DNA from: Patescibacteria group bacterium
GTDB lineage: Bacteria; Patescibacteriota; Patescibacteriia; JAQUQO01
Direction: 5' to 3'
Assembly: GCA_028716045.1 (NCBI GenBank)
Contig: JAQUQO010000001.1
Coordinates: forward strand, 725,176-789,175
DNA length: 64,000 bases
Position 1 is the first letter of the stretch; every line of letters starts with the position of its first letter. The notes beneath the pieces were generated by a model that was not told where the DNA came from, did not search any database, and saw nothing but the letters and a program-made list of their open reading frames with translations. Shown here one piece after another: positions 3,736 to 8,539 of this stretch. The translations under genes were made by a program, and so were the position numbers.

Positions 3736-4728
3736 ATGACTCAACTTTATAGGCCTATTATCAAACAGGCGGCGATTATCACCTGGCGTTTTAAATTTTT
3801 ATGGATTTTTGGTTTTTTTGCCACCGCCCTAAGCGGCGCCGGAAACTACGAAATAATTATCCAGGCGCTCCAAACCATGCGCGGGGAAGGATTTTCTCTT
3901 ATTGGGCTTAAACTGTTTTTCTCTAACCAAATTTTTGAAGGACTCACGTTTTCCAACATCGGACACTTTTTAGCCCAAAACCCGCTGGACGGCTTACTGA
4001 TAATTTTAACCTTACTTTTGGCCCTGGTTATTGCCATTATTCTTATTTGGGTCATTGTTATCTCGGTGGCCGCCCTTATTTATAGCATCGGGAAGCTATA
4101 CAAAAATGAACGGGTGAGTTTTGCCGAGGCCTTTGAAAACGGCGCGAAAAACTTTTGGCCGGTTTTGGGTATAAATTTTCTGGCAAAACTCGGCGTCGGC
4201 GTTTTTCTCTTTATAGTCAGCATCCCTCTTTTCTATCTGGCTTCTAATCCTTCCTGGTTAAACGTTCTTCTTTATCTTATTTTATTCATTATCATGGTTG
4301 CCGCTTCTGTCATTATTTCTTTCGTCAGCATTTTTGCCATCACCTACGTAGTTCTGAATAAAAATCGCTGGTGGGAATCTATAAAATACGGCTACGCCTT
4401 ATTTAAAAAGAATTGGCTTATCAGCATAGAAACGGGAATCATCGTGCTTTTGATTAACTTTCTGTTCGGCCTGGCTTCTCTCGCAGTTATTTTAACTCTC
4501 AGCATACCCTTTGTTCTGCTTTTATCCCTTTTTGTGACCCTTTCTTCCTCTGTCGGTTATGTCATTGTGCTTGCGCTCGGGCTTATCGCCCTCCTTATTT
4601 TTATCATTCTGGCCAGCGCTTTCATATCTTCTTTCCAGTTTACCGTCTGGACTCTGCTCTGGTTGCGCATTCAAAAAAAGGCCCAGCCCAAAATTATGCG
4701 CTTAGCCGAAACTCTCTATAAAACATAA
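3736..4728 (+). CDS. polytopic integral membrane protein (function unknown)
   Basis: RBS AAGGAGG precedes the ATG. The translation contains at least 7 hydrophobic helices. Its stop lies 3 nt before the pilB-like gene. Confidence 0.6.
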   Translation: MTQLYRPIIKQAAIITWRFKFLWIFGFFATALSGAGNYEIIIQALQTMRGEGFSLIGLKLFFSNQIFEGLTFSNIGHFLAQNPLDGLLIILTLLLALVIAIILIWVIVISVAALIYSIGKLYKNERVSFAEAFENGAKNFWPVLGINFLAKLGVGVFLFIVSIPLFYLASNPSWLNVLLYLILFIIMVAASVIISFVSIFAITYVVLNKNRWWESIKYGYALFKKNWLISIETGIIVLLINFLFGLASLAVILTLSIPFVLLLSLFVTLSSSVGYVIVLALGLIALLIFIILASAFISSFQFTVWTLLWLRIQKKAQPKIMRLAETLYKT

Positions 4729-4731
4729 CCT

Positions 4732-6447
4732 ATGTCCTTCCTTAACCCGCGTTCTGATGATTTAAAAAAAATCAAAAAACACGCCCGCTCTTGGTCGGCC
4801 GAGGAAGCCCGGGAACAATTCACTGAAAAAATGCAGGAAATCAGAATTAAGGAAAAAGAAAAAACTACGGCTGAAGAAGCCGCTACTCGGGGATTGCCCT
4901 ACATAAATCTCAAGGGAATTCCCATTAGTCCCGAAGTGCTTTCAAGTATTTCTAAAAAGCAGGCTGAAGAATTAAAGATTATCTGTTTTTTCAATAATGC
5001 CGGACAAATACGCCTGGGAGCATTGGAACCGGAAAAACCGGAAATGAAAGAATTGCTTTTTCAATTAGAGGAACGCTTCCACGGCCAAACCAAAATCTAT
5101 CTGATTTCCGAAGAAAGTTTTAACCAAGCTTTTAAACTTTATGATGCCATTCCGGAAATCAAAGAAGTGCCGACGGGTGTCACCATCAGCGAAGAGGAAC
5201 TTTCCAAATTCCGCGCGGAGTTAAAAACTTTTAAAGATTTAAACGCTCGAATTCAAAAAGCTTCTATCACTGACGTGATGGCTATGATTATCGCCTCCTC
5301 TCTAGAAAGCCGAGCTTCGGATATTCATATTGAGGCCGAGGAAGAAGACGTCAAAATTCGCTTTCGCATAGACGGCGTCCTGCAAGACACTGCCGTTTTG
5401 GAAAAATCCGTTTGGCCGAGGATTATCTCGCGGCTTAAAGTTGTCGCCGGACTGAAAATCAACGTGGAAGACGCGCCGCAGGACGGACGTTTCACTATTT
5501 TTATTAAAGAAGGTAAAACTGACGTCCGCGTTTCCACTTTGCCGACGGCCTACGGTGAAAGCGTGGTGATGCGCCTTCTTAAATCCACGGCCACCAGTTT
5601 ACAATTTGAGGAATTGGGACTACGCGGCGGCGCGTTGGAAAAATTAAAAAAAGAAATTGAGCGGCCCAATGGAATGATTATCACCACCGGCCCTACCGGC
5701 TCCGGTAAAACCACCACGCTTTACGCAATTATAAATAAATTGAACGAACCGGGGATAAAAATCATCACCTTGGAAGACCCGATTGAGTATAAATTAAAAG
5801 GCATTAATCAGAGCCAGATTGATTACTCCAAGGATTACACTTTTGCTAAGGGGTTGCGTTCAATTTTGCGCCAGGACCCGGACATTGTGATGGTGGGAGA
5901 AATTCGCGATTTGGAAACTGCGGAAATCGCCATTCAGGCCGCCCTAACGGGACATTTGGTAATTTCCACTATTCATACTAACAGCGCCGCCGGCGCCTTG
6001 CCGCGTTTTCTTTCCATGGGCGCCAAACCCTTTCTTTTAGCTCCGGCCATTAACGCCATCGTCGGGCAGAGATTGGTGAGAAAAATCTGCGAAGAATGTA
6101 AAAAGGAAATCTCGCCGGACACGGAAATTCTAAAAAGAGTAAAGGGCATTTTAGCCGAACTTCCCGAAGCCGAAAAAAAGAATGTTAATTTGGATAAGCT
6201 AAAATTTTATGCTGGCCAGGGTTGCGCGGCTTGCAACGGTATCGGCTTTAAAGGGCGCGTCGGCATTTACGAAATTATGAATATGAATCCCGAAATAGAA
6301 AAACTGATTCTCTCTGGTAATCTTTCCGAATACCAGATACAAGACATTGCCGTTAAAGATGGAATGGTGACCATGGTTCAAGACGGGCTGTTAAAAGCGT
6401 TAGACGGTATCACTTCCGTAGAGGAAGTATTTAAAGTAGCGGAGTAA
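4732..6447 (+). CDS. pilB: type IV pilus / type II secretion assembly ATPase (PilB/GspE family)
   Basis: Walker A GPTGSGKTTT, Asp box, His box (ISTIHTNSAAGA) and a C-terminal tetracysteine motif (CEEC...CAACNG). Confidence 0.85.
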   Translation: MSFLNPRSDDLKKIKKHARSWSAEEAREQFTEKMQEIRIKEKEKTTAEEAATRGLPYINLKGIPISPEVLSSISKKQAEELKIICFFNNAGQIRLGALEPEKPEMKELLFQLEERFHGQTKIYLISEESFNQAFKLYDAIPEIKEVPTGVTISEEELSKFRAELKTFKDLNARIQKASITDVMAMIIASSLESRASDIHIEAEEEDVKIRFRIDGVLQDTAVLEKSVWPRIISRLKVVAGLKINVEDAPQDGRFTIFIKEGKTDVRVSTLPTAYGESVVMRLLKSTATSLQFEELGLRGGALEKLKKEIERPNGMIITTGPTGSGKTTTLYAIINKLNEPGIKIITLEDPIEYKLKGINQSQIDYSKDYTFAKGLRSILRQDPDIVMVGEIRDLETAEIAIQAALTGHLVISTIHTNSAAGALPRFLSMGAKPFLLAPAINAIVGQRLVRKICEECKKEISPDTEILKRVKGILAELPEAEKKNVNLDKLKFYAGQGCAACNGIGFKGRVGIYEIMNMNPEIEKLILSGNLSEYQIQDIAVKDGMVTMVQDGLLKALDGITSVEEVFKVAE

Positions 6448-6462
6448 AATTAACTTAATCTT

Positions 6463-7221
6463 ATGAAACCAACGGATTTGGAAAAATTTGGATTGTCGGA
6501 CAAAGAGGCCAATGTTTATTTGGCCGCTTTGGAGCTGGGGACCTCCACCGTTCAAAAAATTTCCGGTAAAGCAAAGCTAAAACGCCCCACGACTTATGTG
6601 ATAATAAAATCTCTTACTAGCAAAGGGCTGATGAGCAGTTTTCAGGAGGGGAAAAAACAATTTTTTGTGGCCGAAAATCCGGAACGATTAAACAGTTTCA
6701 TGGAGAATCGAAAAAGAGAATTAGATGATAAAAAGGAAGAATTGAAAAAATTACTGCCGGAGCTAAAAACAATTTATAACGCCGCCGAAGGGAAGCCTAC
6801 TGTAAAATTTTATGAAGGCAAGGAAGGCCTCCTGATGATGGTGGAAGAATTTTTGGAATCGGATATAAAAGAAGCTATGATGATTTATTCAAACGATCTG
6901 GTTGAAAAAGTATTCACGGAAAAAGAACGCGCTGATGCCAGAGAACGAAGAGCTCATAAACAAATACGCGTCCAAAGTATTTATACCTCCGCTGCGGCAG
7001 AGCGTCTGCCTTCAAAATTCAGCGAGAGAAAAAGAATCCCCGAAAATAAGTTTCCCCTGTTCTGCGATATAACTATTTTCGCCGATAAAGTCCGTATCGC
7101 TTCTTTGGGCGACCGACTATCCGGCATTATTATCCAGGATAAAGCCATTGCTGAAACTCTTAAATCTATTTTTAAACTGGCTTGGGAAGGTGCGGAAAAG
7201 TATAACCAATCAAAAACATAA
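6463..7221 (+). CDS. TrmB-like HTH transcriptional regulator
   Basis: N-terminus LSDKEANVYLAALELGTSTVQKISGKAKLKRPTTYVIIKSLTSKGLM resembles the TrmB HTH. It sits immediately downstream of the pilB-like gene. Confidence 0.5.
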   Translation: MKPTDLEKFGLSDKEANVYLAALELGTSTVQKISGKAKLKRPTTYVIIKSLTSKGLMSSFQEGKKQFFVAENPERLNSFMENRKRELDDKKEELKKLLPELKTIYNAAEGKPTVKFYEGKEGLLMMVEEFLESDIKEAMMIYSNDLVEKVFTEKERADARERRAHKQIRVQSIYTSAAAERLPSKFSERKRIPENKFPLFCDITIFADKVRIASLGDRLSGIIIQDKAIAETLKSIFKLAWEGAEKYNQSKT

Positions 7222-7243
7222 CAACTATAAACCCTAAAAAGTA

Positions 7244-7283
7244 AAAGCCCAGGATACGCATTGGTAATCCTGGGCTTTTTTGT
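7244..7283 (+). terminator. rho-independent terminator
   Basis: GCCCAGGAT...ATCCTGGGC stem followed by TTTTTTGTTTTT. Confidence 0.75.
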
Positions 7284-7846
7284 TTTTGGGGCAAGGCTTA
7301 GAAATGTCCGAATGTACAAAAAATCGTGGAATCGGTAGATTTTAAGACACTCTTGATATCGCCCCGTTGCCGAAGGGAGGTTCTTCCTTCATCTTTTTTT
7401 CTTTCTCTTGTCTGTTTTTTGGTCTGATTGACAATTGGCAGATACTCTATCTGTGCTACTTACTAGTCGTTCACCTTACATACCTCCTTTCAATTTTGAG
7501 GGTAATTATTGGGATTTTTATAGGTCCTTCCCCAACCTCCATAGAGAAGGACCTACTTATTCCCTTAAAATTTAGTCAGGCATAACACCCTCCTTTGTTA
7601 CTGGTTGACTAAATACACCGCTATTCTTTTAAAATAACAAAATTACTGCTGGCTCCTATATTATCATATGTCTTATATATTGTCAATAGTGGTTGACAAA
7701 GGCCTGTGGATAACTTTTTAAAAATACCCCGTAAAAAATTATTATTTTCTATAAATGTCATAAAAAAATAACAATATTATGAGCTTTATTTTTAGCTTAA
7801 ATTAGCCAAAAAATTAAATAATATTTATAAATTAAGTCAGGGGGGC

Positions 7847-7875
7847 TTGACAAATTTTTTAGGGTGTGTTATAGT
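7847..7875 (+). promoter_or_regulatory. consensus sigma70-like promoter (TTGACA-17-TATAGT) driving an ORF-free transcript
   Basis: TTGACA at 7847-7852, a 17-nt spacer, TATAGT at 7870-7875. A TTAGCTTAAATTAGCCAAAAAA element and a DnaA-box 9-mer lie upstream. Confidence 0.6.
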
Positions 7876-7881
7876 GGTGCT

Positions 7882-8365
7882 ATCAGTTGTCGAAGTTCCT
7901 TAAAACTAAATTTAAAAAATTCTGACAAGCACCGGGATAAGGGTAAAAACTTCCCAAAATATTGTATTCCAACGGCCCCCTACGGCCTTGGGATATTACT
8001 CTTCCTTTTATGGAGAGTGCCCATGCTTGTTACTAGGGGCTACCACCCCCGGTGTTTGTCAGAATCTAAAATTTTTGCACAGTTTGGGGTAGTGTAGGAG
8101 CCGGTTACTTCGACTAAAAAGAGATAACCAATTTGTTGCTTAGCCATCCTCCGTTTAAGGAAGAAAATGGCTAAACGCAATTTGCTTTGCAATATGCTGA
8201 AGTAAATTGTGGCGGAATGAAAGTTCCACCTCTGCTCTGCGCGAAAGTGTAAAGCAGGGGCCAAAGCGATACGGCGCCGCGGCAAGCACCGACCCCGCCT
8301 CTTCTCCCCAAATTGAGCAATTTTACATGCCCGACGATAATTATTTCGTCGGGCTCCTTTCTCAA
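7882..8365 (+). ncRNA. candidate structured non-coding RNA (putative Y-RNA-like partner of the adjacent Ro60/Rsr)
   Basis: There is no credible ORF or RBS in this stretch. An 18-bp helix pairs 7919-7936 (ATTCTGACAAGCACCGGG) with 8048-8065 (CCCGGTGTTTGTCAGAAT) and encloses internal hairpins. A 9-bp GCCCGACGA...TCGTCGGGC hairpin at 8330-8357 is followed by a U-rich tract. The transcript lies immediately 5-prime of rsr. Confidence 0.45.
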
Positions 8366-8539
8366 GTCAGAAACTTATCCGGCTTGAGAAAGGGGCTTGG
8401 TAGTGTAGATAAGGGATACTTCGGATATCGGTTTCTATTTAAGCATTGCCCTTGTCACTTTTTCTCCAGGAACCTTGTAATTTGATAACACAAAACTGCC
8501 GTCTGATAAATATCGGACTGGTGTAAGGAGGGAATTTAA

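What the first reader, a model, noticed from the sequence alone, without database searches (positions are those of the whole stretch)
7847..8365. Promoter-driven, ORF-free, stem-closed transcript immediately upstream of rsr: candidate Y-RNA-like partner
- A near-consensus TTGACA-17-TATAGT promoter (7847-7875) starts a ~480-nt stretch. It has no plausible ORF or RBS before the rsr RBS.
- An 18-bp helix (7919-7936 with 8048-8065, one G-U) encloses about 110 nt containing further hairpins (CCAACGGCC...GGCCTTGG, TTAGCCAT...ATGGCTAA).
- A 9-bp GC hairpin plus U-tract at 8330-8365 resembles a terminator.
- Bacterial Y RNAs and YrlA are typically encoded adjacent to rsr, and they use a long stem formed by the 5-prime and 3-prime ends to bind Ro60.
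- The segment GGGGTAGTGTAGGAGCCGGTTACTTCGAC (8087-8115) has a weak tRNA-like flavour.
Basis: partly seen in the sequence, partly recalled or inferred. Interest (0 to 1): 0.8.

Follow-up and report, generated by a model that had tools for sequence, protein, structure and literature searches.

The report
Two Y-RNA-like genes upstream of rsr
The non-coding stretch in front of the Ro60 (rsr) gene of this Patescibacteria genome holds a conserved promoter and two Y-RNA-like genes, one of them a new 246-nt variant without the usual tRNA-like part, whereas the 18-bp helix that drew attention is an unrelated, lineage-specific leader structure.

Summary
A promoter (7847-7875) whose -35 and extended -10 elements are invariant in seven relatives precedes:

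- **Domain 1 (7919-8065).** An orphan structured element closed by the 18-bp helix. It has no Y-RNA motifs and no homologue anywhere I could search.
- **Long unit (8075-8320).** A Y-like RNA.
- **Two conserved hairpins (8329-8395).**
- **Short unit (8390-8476).** A second Y-like RNA, lying outside the finding's coordinates.
- **rsr (8540-10252).**

Both units share a stem, 1-nt bulge, 2 bp, internal loop, helix architecture with the 5' words RG-yGUAG and UACUUCG and the 3' word CUUCUCC. In related lineages the same frame carries tRNA-like modules that hit Rfam YrlA (RF02553). Covariation supports the shared stem (19 of 21 pairs with double changes) and the long unit's 3' domain (19 of 24).

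The window's units have no tRNA-like module and give no Rfam hit. The long unit's roughly 175-nt insert is a clade-specific structured domain found in about ten genomes.

Verdict: a new variant of a known kind. Rsr binding is inferred, not shown.

The parts
7847..7875 (+). Sigma-70-type promoter: -35 TTGACA 7847-7852, TG-extended -10 TATAGT 7870-7875; predicted start about 7881-7883
   Evidence: 11/12 match plus TG. CTTGACAAA and TGnTA are invariant in the alignment of seven relatives' regions upstream of their Y-like arrays (A3).
7919..8065 (+). Domain 1: orphan structured leader element, a multi-branch junction with four hairpins closed by an 18-bp helix (7919-7936 / 8048-8065, one G-U)
   Evidence: MFE -66.4 kcal/mol, z = -6.9. 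No Y motifs. No second copy in the window and no homologue in the loci by blastn. Single-sequence covariance model R2 finds only itself. No Rfam family at E<=10. Similarity to the short unit is marginal, 31/500 shuffles.
8075..8320 (+). Long Y-like RNA. H1 8080-8089/8306-8315 (extends to 8075/8320); bulge U8090; AG 8091-92 paired with CU 8304-05; internal loop UGUA 8093-96 / GCCUCUU 8297-8303; H2 8097-8105/8288-8296; UACUUCG 8106-8112. The ~175-nt insert holds hairpins 8140-47/8167-74 (enclosing CCUCCGUUUAAGG), GGAAU-GAAA-GUUCC 8214-8227, 8230-8259 (GAAA loop), and 8260-8283 (AUACGG loop).
   Evidence: Homologues in 11 units of 9 relatives (A2). RNAalifold: 30 of 40 pairs with compensatory changes. 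3' domain: 91.5% paired, 19/24 pairs with double changes. Model R1 scores the window copy at 103.5 bits, but that copy is one of its 12 training sequences, so the match is by construction; R1 finds no second copy in the window. z = -5.6.
8329..8354 (+). GC-rich hairpin directly after the long unit (9 bp, 7 G-C); weak terminator, attenuator or 3'-end stabiliser
   Evidence: A GC hairpin at the same position, followed by a C/U-rich tail, is present in L001, L080, L082, L003, L086 and L087.
8354..8395 (+). Hairpin 2: pyrimidine-rich 5' arm CUCCUUUCUCAAG, purine-rich 3' arm CUUGAGAAAGGGG; its base overlaps the outer part of the short unit's H1
   Evidence: (I5). Counterparts CCUCUyyC.../...GrAAGAGGAGG in L003, L086, L080, L009, L083, L087, L008 and L082.
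8390..8476 (+). Short Y-like RNA (YrlB-like). H1 8390-8400/8466-8476; bulge U8401; AG 8402-03 / CU 8464-65; loop UGUA / ACUUUUU; H2 8408-8416/8448-8456; UACUUCG 8417-8423; 24-nt insert.
   Evidence: Direct repeat of the long unit's 5' motif (D1). Folds into the Y stem. It is one row of the 27-unit stem alignment. The window-wide scan finds only this unit and the long unit.
8498..8532 (+). rsr translation-initiation region: 10-bp hairpin with bulged U8519, then GG-UGUA-AGGAGGG (SD 8526-8532), ATG at 8540. A loose copy of the Y 5'-strand word placed on the SD.
   Evidence: Relatives carry CUUCUCCCC-loop-GGGGCAGCGUnGAGG-N5-6-AUG at -18/-19.
8540..10252 (+). rsr (Ro60 orthologue, 570 aa)
   Evidence: Pfam TROVE 2.8e-31. 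The Ro60 vWA domain scores 26.9 bits, just below its cut-off. About 45 orthologues at 50-66% identity in Patescibacteria.

Best explanation
The stretch from 7847 to the rsr start is a non-coding operon leader. It encodes two Y-RNA-type partners of Rsr.

**Proposed mechanism**
1. One conserved sigma-70-type promoter starts a transcript.
2. The transcript runs through a lineage-specific structured leader (domain 1), a 246-nt 'long' Y-like RNA, two hairpins, an 87-nt 'short' Y-like RNA and then rsr.
3. Each Y-like unit is closed by pairing of its own 5' and 3' ends into the same module: helix H1, a one-nucleotide bulge, two base pairs (RG/CU), an asymmetric internal loop (yGUA opposite G-N3-4-UU), then a 9-bp helix H2 followed by UACUUCG.
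4. This module is the counterpart of the stem-bulge-stem that Ro60/Rsr binds in characterised Y RNAs.
5. The variable insert beyond H2 is the effector-binding module. [quoted passage not shown] In the short unit it is a small U-rich hairpin, as in YrlB/Yrn2.
6. The units are probably cut out of the precursor, as in Mycobacterium smegmatis and Deinococcus radiodurans, and then tether or gate Rsr.

**Shown here:** the promoter and its conservation, the unit architecture, covariation, the homology link to YrlA-bearing lineages, and the absence of a tRNA-like module.

**Inferred:** transcription as one unit, processing, Rsr binding, and effector tethering.
For: - **Promoter.** 11/12 plus TG; -35 and extended -10 invariant in seven relatives.
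- **Motif position.** The motif GG-N-RG-yGUAG-N8-UACUUCG occurs twice in the window, both times on the rsr strand just upstream of rsr. It recurs in 1-4 copies upstream of rsr in the related loci.
- **Stem covariation.** Model on 27 non-identical units: 88.4% of cells paired against 61% in shuffles and 44-52% with slid partners; 19 of 21 pairs with double changes.
- **Link to YrlA.** The same 5'/3' frame encloses T-arm/acceptor-like/D-arm modules in L089, L090, L091, L095, L107, L108 and L112. Four of these loci were scanned against Rfam and all four hit YrlA RF02553: E = 1.7e-7 (L091), 4e-5 (L108), 4e-4 (L095), 1.4e-3 (L090). The Rfam consensus has the same layout: H1, internal loop, H2, then CUAc.
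- **Long unit.** 12 homologues; RNAalifold 30/40 compensatory pairs. 3' domain 91.5% paired with 19/24 double changes.
- **Precedents in the literature.** Several Y RNAs upstream of rsr processed from one precursor; modular Ro-binding plus effector modules; Ro60 contacts mainly the 5' strand of the bulged helix (PMC4201824; bioRxiv 10.1101/312249; PMC12135203).
- **No coding signal**.
Against: - There are no expression data, so transcript ends, processing and Rsr binding are all inferred.
- The 5' word is yGUAG, not the published GNCGAAN0-1G/CGAA, so recognition by Rsr may differ.
- No Rfam family hits the window's units, even at E<=10.
- The units in the stem alignment were selected with a pairing filter, which inflates the percentage paired. 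The fixed register relative to conserved words, and the separate long-unit alignment, which was not chosen with that pairing filter, mitigate this.
- A GC hairpin between the long unit and rsr could terminate transcription, which would leave the short unit and rsr without an identified conserved promoter.
- Domain 1 has no assigned role.
Confidence: 0.8

Rival explanations
1. The whole stretch is a cis-acting 5' untranslated leader of the rsr mRNA, not a source of free small RNAs. The Y-like stems would be Rsr-binding operators through which Rsr represses its own translation or stability. This would resemble ribosomal-protein or threonyl-tRNA-synthetase leaders that mimic the protein's normal RNA ligand.
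For: - No canonical U-tract terminator separates the units from rsr.
- In many lineages a Y unit ends 0-3 nt before the SD. In L003, L086, L009 and L081 the full 5' word GGGGCAGCGUnG sits at -18/-19 and overlaps the SD, preceded by CUUCUCCCC plus a loop. The background rate of the word is about 0.08 per kb per strand.
- The window has a looser copy, stem-U-GG-UGUA-AGGAGGG, at 8515-8532.
Against: - Characterised bacterial Y RNAs with the same genomic arrangement are processed to stable RNAs bound by Rsr (PMC4201824).
- The long unit's elaborate, covarying insert is hard to explain as an operator.
- The two roles are not exclusive: free Y RNAs and an autoregulatory site at the ribosome-binding site could coexist.
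Confidence: 0.12
2. One reading: one transcript of about 480 nt whose 18-bp helix (7919-7936 / 8048-8065) is the Ro60-binding stem of a Y RNA.
For: - The helix is real and strong.
- It lies just behind the promoter.
- Metazoan Y RNAs use a long terminal stem.
Against: - The helix is perfectly paired, without the bulge and internal loop that define Ro-binding stems.
- It lacks the RG-yGUAG, UACUUCG and CUUCUCC words.
- It is absent from all relatives, whose leaders at this position are unrelated and 72-252 nt long.
- Two other stems in the same stretch carry all the family features.
Confidence: 0.04
3. Domain 1 is a decayed paralogue of the short Y unit, or a processing signal. On the second, its 18-bp duplex serves as an RNase III-type cleavage site that frees the downstream Y RNAs from the leader.
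For: - It lies 9 nt upstream of the long unit, where relatives have a short unit 10-25 nt upstream.
- It shares the words GAUAAGGG and GCCC..UUGU.ACU with the window's short unit.
- A 49-nt local alignment scores 28.
Against: - 31 of 500 shuffles reach the alignment score.
- There are no homologues on which to test conservation.
- Nothing can be tested here about RNase III.
Confidence: 0.3
4. The stretch encodes small proteins (ORFs 7864-8097, 77 aa; 8207-8485, 92 aa).
For: The ORFs exist mechanically.
Against: - No family hits.
- The first ORF starts inside the promoter.
- Matches in relatives occur on both strands and in different frames.
- Substitutions preserve base pairs, not codons.
Confidence: 0.01

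Closest known systems
YrlA (Y RNA-like A; Rfam RF02553; Chen et al. 2014, PMC4201824)
   Same: - Encoded within 4 kb of rsr on the same strand.
- 5' and 3' ends pair into H1, internal loop, H2, followed by a YUAY word (UUAC in the long unit).
- The same 5'/3' frame with the same words encloses bona fide tRNA-like modules in related lineages that hit RF02553.
   Different: - No T arm, acceptor-like stem or D arm.
- No RF02553 or tRNA signal.
- The 5' word is RG-yGUAG instead of GNCGAAN0-1G.
- A one-nucleotide bulge sits in H1, as in metazoan Y RNAs.
- The long unit's insert is about 175 nt with its own conserved hairpins.
YrlB (Salmonella, M. smegmatis) and Yrn2 (D. radiodurans): simple hairpin Y RNAs
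   Same: [quoted passage not shown]
- It sits next to a larger Y RNA and upstream of rsr.
- The published RNAs come from a polycistronic precursor.
   Different: Sequence words differ. Binding and processing are untested here.
Yrl1/Yrl2 of Thermus phage phiLo (PMC12135203)
   Same: Two Y-like RNAs directly upstream of a Ro60 gene, recognised by stem-bulge-stem architecture plus a short motif.
   Different: Those carry CGAA and are short. No DNA similarity of the window stretch to any phage record.
Metazoan Y RNAs
   Same: Terminal stem with a single bulged pyrimidine, two further pairs, an internal loop, then an upper stem. From memory, human Y1/Y4 read C-GA-(A/U)GGUAG-U at the equivalent place, close to C/U-AG-yGUAG here.
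   Different: Metazoan Y RNAs are Pol III genes unlinked to Ro60 and have different effector loops. The resemblance is recalled, not tested.

Membership tests
Y RNA (Ro60/Rsr-binding ncRNA, broad class) | Encoded next to rsr on the same strand (bacteria) | tested here: met
   Units at 8075-8320 and 8390-8476 (+), rsr at 8540 (+). The same arrangement is seen in relatives.
Y RNA (Ro60/Rsr-binding ncRNA, broad class) | 5' and 3' ends pair into a conserved bulged stem (stem-bulge-stem) | tested here: met
   H1, bulge, 2 bp, internal loop, H2. 19 of 21 pairs with double changes; 88% paired against 61% (shuffled) and 44-52% (slid). For the long class, 30/40 compensatory pairs.
Y RNA (Ro60/Rsr-binding ncRNA, broad class) | Conserved 5'-strand Ro-binding word (GGUCCGA in animals; GNCGAAN0-1G / CGAA in bacteria) | tested here: inconclusive
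   A nearly invariant word is present at the equivalent place, but it reads RG-yGUAG (A5). The same variant occurs in units that hit RF02553.
Y RNA (Ro60/Rsr-binding ncRNA, broad class) | Bound by Ro60/Rsr; stability depends on Rsr | not testable with these tools
   Needs RIP, EMSA or an rsr deletion.
YrlA (Rfam RF02553) | Reaches the family's gathering score (69 bits) | tested here: not met
   No hit at gathering, at E<=10 in 7200-8600, or at E<=1 in 4500-14300. Positive control: L091 46 bits, L108 38, L095 34, L090 32.5.
YrlA (Rfam RF02553) | tRNA-like effector module (T arm, acceptor-like stem-loop, D arm) | tested here: not met
   No GGUUCGAAUCC-type T arm in either unit. ARAGORN finds none. 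No Rfam tRNA or YrlA signal.
YrlA (Rfam RF02553) | YUAY word after the Ro-binding helix | tested here: met
   UUAC at 8105-8108 (long unit). AUAC at 8416-8419 (short unit, first base not a pyrimidine).
YrlB/Yrn2-type Y RNA | [quoted passage not shown] | tested here: inconclusive
   The short unit folds as a long hairpin with a 24-nt U-rich distal part. No reference model exists to score against.
Intrinsic terminator (8329-8354) | GC-rich stem followed by a U-tract | tested here: inconclusive
   The stem is met: 9 bp, 7 G-C. The tail UCCUUUCUC is C/U-rich and pairs into hairpin 2. Relatives keep the hairpin, again with C/U-rich tails.
Sigma-70-type promoter (7847-7875) | -35 and -10 hexamers at 17-nt spacing, conserved in orthologous loci | tested here: met
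   11/12 plus TG. CTTGACAAA and TGnTA invariant in seven relatives. Activity not tested.

The most novel reading that the evidence does not exclude
A clade of Patescibacteria has replaced the tRNA-like effector module of bacterial Y RNAs with a new, roughly 175-nt structured domain. Its features are a CCUCCGUAUGAGG hairpin, two GNRA-capped hairpins and an AUACGG-loop hairpin. On this reading the domain recruits a different partner to Rsr. The clade also controls rsr translation through a folded-back copy of the Y stem placed on the Shine-Dalgarno sequence. That would make these the first Y RNPs described in the Candidate Phyla Radiation, and the first case of Ro60 autoregulation by Y-RNA mimicry.
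Probability: 0.35. Interest if true: 0.7.

Novelty: new variant of a known kind. Interest (0 to 1): 0.55.

Why it matters
Y RNAs are modular. One module binds Ro60/Rsr, and the other chooses the partner (PNPase in Deinococcus; unknown for YrlA).

The published generalisation is that each Ro60-containing bacterium has at least one Y RNA with a tRNA-like module. Here, within 4 kb of rsr, neither unit has one. The larger unit instead carries a different, well-conserved structured domain restricted to about ten Patescibacteria genomes.

This gives a natural experiment on what the effector module does, in organisms with minimal genomes. It also extends Y RNAs to a superphylum where, in the literature I could search, they have not been described.

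The Y-stem words on the rsr ribosome-binding site in relatives suggest a testable feedback loop.

Practically, Rfam's YrlA model misses this lineage. It also scores clear YrlA-like units in neighbouring lineages below threshold, so a broader model is warranted.

Tried and rejected
- **Rfam.** Gathering and permissive thresholds over the window, the rsr flanks and domain 1 alone gave nothing relevant. The 22-bit hit to an Enterococcus sRNA at 8322-8395 only reflects the two adjacent hairpins.
- **tRNA-likeness of 8086-8114.** Rejected.
- **Protein coding.** Rejected.
- **Domain 1 as a repeat or mobile element.** No second copy in 64 kb.
- **Domain 1 homologues.** None by blastn, by covariance model R2, or in phage records.
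- **Independent assembly.** The Logan assembly of the same locus is identical, so it gives no variation.
- **Domain 1 versus the short unit.** Marginal, p about 0.06 by shuffling.
- **A third Y unit downstream of rsr.** The candidate at 10422 has H1 7/12 and was rejected.
- **My own errors.** An off-by-one regex was corrected. MAFFT misregistered units with 6-, 7- or 9-nt 3' loops, so the pair count used only the 27 units with the modal 8-nt loop.

Full report
**1. Context**

The ORF at 8540-10252 (+) is a Ro60/Rsr orthologue: Pfam TROVE 2.8e-31, with the Ro60 vWA domain just under its cut-off. Its closest relatives, at 50-66% identity, are annotated from Patescibacteria and Candidatus Uhrbacteria MAGs. 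The window matches MAG GCA_028711565.1.

Upstream lies a TrmB-like regulator gene ending at 7221. That leaves 1.3 kb without a credible gene.

**2. Checking the observation**

- The promoter TTGACA-17-TATAGT (7847-7875) matches 11 of 12 positions and has a TG extension.
- The 18-bp helix 7919-7936 / 8048-8065 with one G-U is real.
- So is the GC hairpin at 8329-8354.
- Folding energies lie far below shuffles: z = -8.4 for 7876-8365, -6.9 for 7910-8074, -5.6 for 8075-8320.

Three details were wrong:

- TTAGCCAT/ATGGCTAA (8140-8147 / 8167-8174) is not inside the 18-bp helix.
- The tail after the GC hairpin is C/U-rich rather than a U-tract.
- The stretch is not one stem-closed unit. The MFE already shows a second long-range closing helix, 8075-8089 / 8306-8320.

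**3. The key lead**

A 25-nt direct repeat, GGTAGTGTAG-N-ACTTCG, occurs at 8088-8112 and 8399-8423. The same word recurs next to rsr in loci fetched through Rsr homologues from genomes and metagenomes.

In Bacteroidota it precedes an obvious T arm and D arm, which is the published YrlA layout (PMC4201824).

In the Patescibacteria-type loci, 1-4 units lie upstream of rsr on its strand. Each has the frame: H1 ...GG, N (bulge), RG, yGUA, [9-nt H2], UACUUCG, insert, [H2'], G-N3-4-UU, CU, CC... H1'.

Inserts range from 8 to about 320 nt. In L089, L090, L091, L095, L107, L108 and L112 the insert is a T arm, acceptor-like hairpin and D arm. I scanned four of these loci (L090, L091, L095, L108) against Rfam, and all four hit YrlA RF02553 with significant E-values, although below the gathering score. 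The Rfam consensus shows the same H1, loop, H2, CUAc order.

The frame is therefore a lineage variant of the YrlA/Y-RNA Ro-binding module.

**4. Covariation of the shared stem**

I excised the inserts and aligned the 27 non-identical units that have the modal 8-nt 3' loop. The explicit H1/H2 model gives:

| Measure | Result |
|---|---|
| Cells paired | 88.4% |
| Cells paired, shuffled | 61% |
| Cells paired, partners slid | 44-52% |
| Pairs with changes on both sides | 19 of 21 |
| Shuffles reaching the covariation score | 0 of 500 |

(All.)

Caveat: units were collected with a pairing filter, which inflates the percentage paired. The register is fixed by conserved unpaired words, and the long-class alignment below was not chosen with that pairing filter.

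**5. The long unit (8075-8320)**

Eleven homologous units in nine relatives align with it: L001, L003, L008, L009 ×2, L080, L082, L083 ×2, L086, L087.

- RNAalifold predicts 40 pairs, 30 of them with compensatory changes. These cover H1, H2 and three hairpins of the 3' half.
- An explicit model of the 3' domain has a GGAAy-GAAA-rUUCC hairpin, a 12-bp GNRA-capped hairpin, and a hairpin with an AUACGG loop. It gives 91.5% paired against 69% (shuffled) and 33-45% (slid), with 19 of 24 pairs changed on both sides.
- A further hairpin encloses the conserved CCUCCGUAUGAGG.
- H2 carries a C·A mismatch at the same position in the window, L001, L080, L003 and L086.
- A covariance model of the 3' domain finds this class only in those genomes, plus a truncated L081 copy, and once in the window.

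**6. The short unit (8390-8476)**

It has the same 5' and 3' words. It folds into the Y stem when the upstream hairpin is left out. It resembles the short units that precede the long unit in relatives.

A window-wide scan for the full definition returns only these two units.

**7. What the window lacks**

Neither unit has a tRNA-like module. ARAGORN, Rfam tRNA and RF02553 are silent at permissive thresholds over ±4 kb around rsr, while the control loci respond.

This departs from the published statement that each characterised species has one tRNA-like Y RNA (PMC4201824).

**8. Domain 1 (7919-8065)**

This is the finding's centrepiece, but it has none of the family words.

- Relatives have unrelated leaders of 72-252 nt between the conserved promoter and their first unit.
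- blastn, a structure-aware model, Rfam and phage records find no relative.
- It occupies the slot where relatives carry a short unit, and it shares a few words with the window's short unit, but the similarity is marginal.

I treat it as a lineage-specific leader structure. It may be a decayed unit or a processing duplex. That is inference only.

**9. Transcription unit**

- The -35 (CTTGACAAA) and extended -10 (TGnTA) elements are invariant in seven relatives, upstream of their arrays.
- After the long unit, relatives keep a GC hairpin and then a second hairpin with a pyrimidine-rich 5' arm and a purine-rich 3' arm. The window equivalents are 8329-8354 and 8354-8395.
- The tails are C/U-rich, so efficient intrinsic termination is doubtful. 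Read-through into rsr is the simplest reading, in line with polycistronic precursors in M. smegmatis and D. radiodurans.

**10. Beyond the finding**

In L003, L086, L009 and L081 the sequence CUUCUCCCC-loop-GGGGCAGCGUnGAGG-N5-6-AUG places both Y-stem words on the rsr Shine-Dalgarno at -18/-19. L083 has it with an inserted hairpin. The word's background rate is about 0.08 per kb per strand.

More distant lineages end a complete unit 0-3 nt before the SD. The window has a looser version, stem-U-GG-UGUA-AGGAGGG.

This suggests that Rsr may bind its own translation-initiation region. It is a hypothesis, not a result.

**11. Comparison and novelty**

The units work like Y RNAs. They are related to YrlA through the shared Ro-binding frame, but they fail YrlA's defining tRNA-like feature and its Rfam threshold.

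The short unit is YrlB/Yrn2-like. The long unit is a new variant with a clade-specific effector domain.

I found no paper linking Patescibacteria/CPR with Y RNAs in the searchable library. That is absence of evidence only.

**Verdict:** a real feature and a new variant of a known kind.

Noticed in passing
L009:3940-3997, L081:910-966, L003:3945-3997, L086:1945-1992, L083:2930-2997; window 8498-8542: The rsr ribosome-binding site in close relatives reads CUUCUCCCC-loop-GGGGCAGCGUnGAGG-N5-6-AUG. That is the Y 3'-strand and 5'-strand words folded back on each other, with the SD in the place of helix H2. The window has a looser stem-U-GG-UGUA-AGGAGGG. This may be an Rsr autoregulatory site.
   Followed up: partly
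L095:15-2580 and 1429-1693 (similar loci L093, L096-L098, L101, L102, L106, L153): A soil-metagenome lineage has an array of about 13 tRNA genes and a strong hit to the archaeal-type RNase P RNA model (RF00373, 169.5 bits). Both lie directly upstream of several YrlA-like units and rsr, all on one strand.
   Followed up: no
L010, L011, L014 (Myxococcales), both sides of rsr: Dense tRNA gene arrays flank rsr, up to about a dozen per 9.5-kb locus.
   Followed up: no
window 7222-7846: A 625-nt stretch without credible genes lies between the TrmB-like gene and the Y promoter. It holds a strong divergent promoter-like site on the minus strand (TTGACA-17-TAATAT, 7686-7658, 10/12 plus TG), a perfect 10-bp hairpin (7521-7530 / 7546-7555), and AT-rich blocks partly conserved upstream of the promoter in relatives (AAATTAGCnAAAAAT).
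   Followed up: no
window 8354-8395 and counterparts in L003, L086, L080, L009, L083, L087, L008, L082: A conserved hairpin after the long unit pairs a CCUCUUC-type arm with a GAAGAGGAGG-type (SD-like) arm. In the window its base competes with the outer pairs of the short unit's H1. Function unknown.
   Followed up: partly
window 10253-10663: The intergenic region downstream of rsr is highly structured: MFE -144 kcal/mol over 411 nt. It holds a terminator-like hairpin at about 10266-10293 and several GC-rich hairpins. It does not fit the Y-unit definition, and the permissive Rfam scan of 4500-14300 returned no match in it.
   Followed up: partly
L015-L073 (Bacteroidota), downstream of rsr: Units reading GTGyCGTAGA-N-TTACTTCG plus a T arm plus a D arm occur in 1-4 copies downstream of rsr. 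Rfam RF02553 did not reach its gathering score in the Chryseobacterium, Chitinophaga and Hymenobacter loci tested. The curated model seems too narrow for these lineages.
   Followed up: no
window 8313-8341: A weak promoter-like match (TTGAGC-17-GATAAT, 9/12) has its -10 element in the loop of the GC hairpin. It could give the short unit and rsr their own start. Conservation in relatives was not checked.
   Followed up: no
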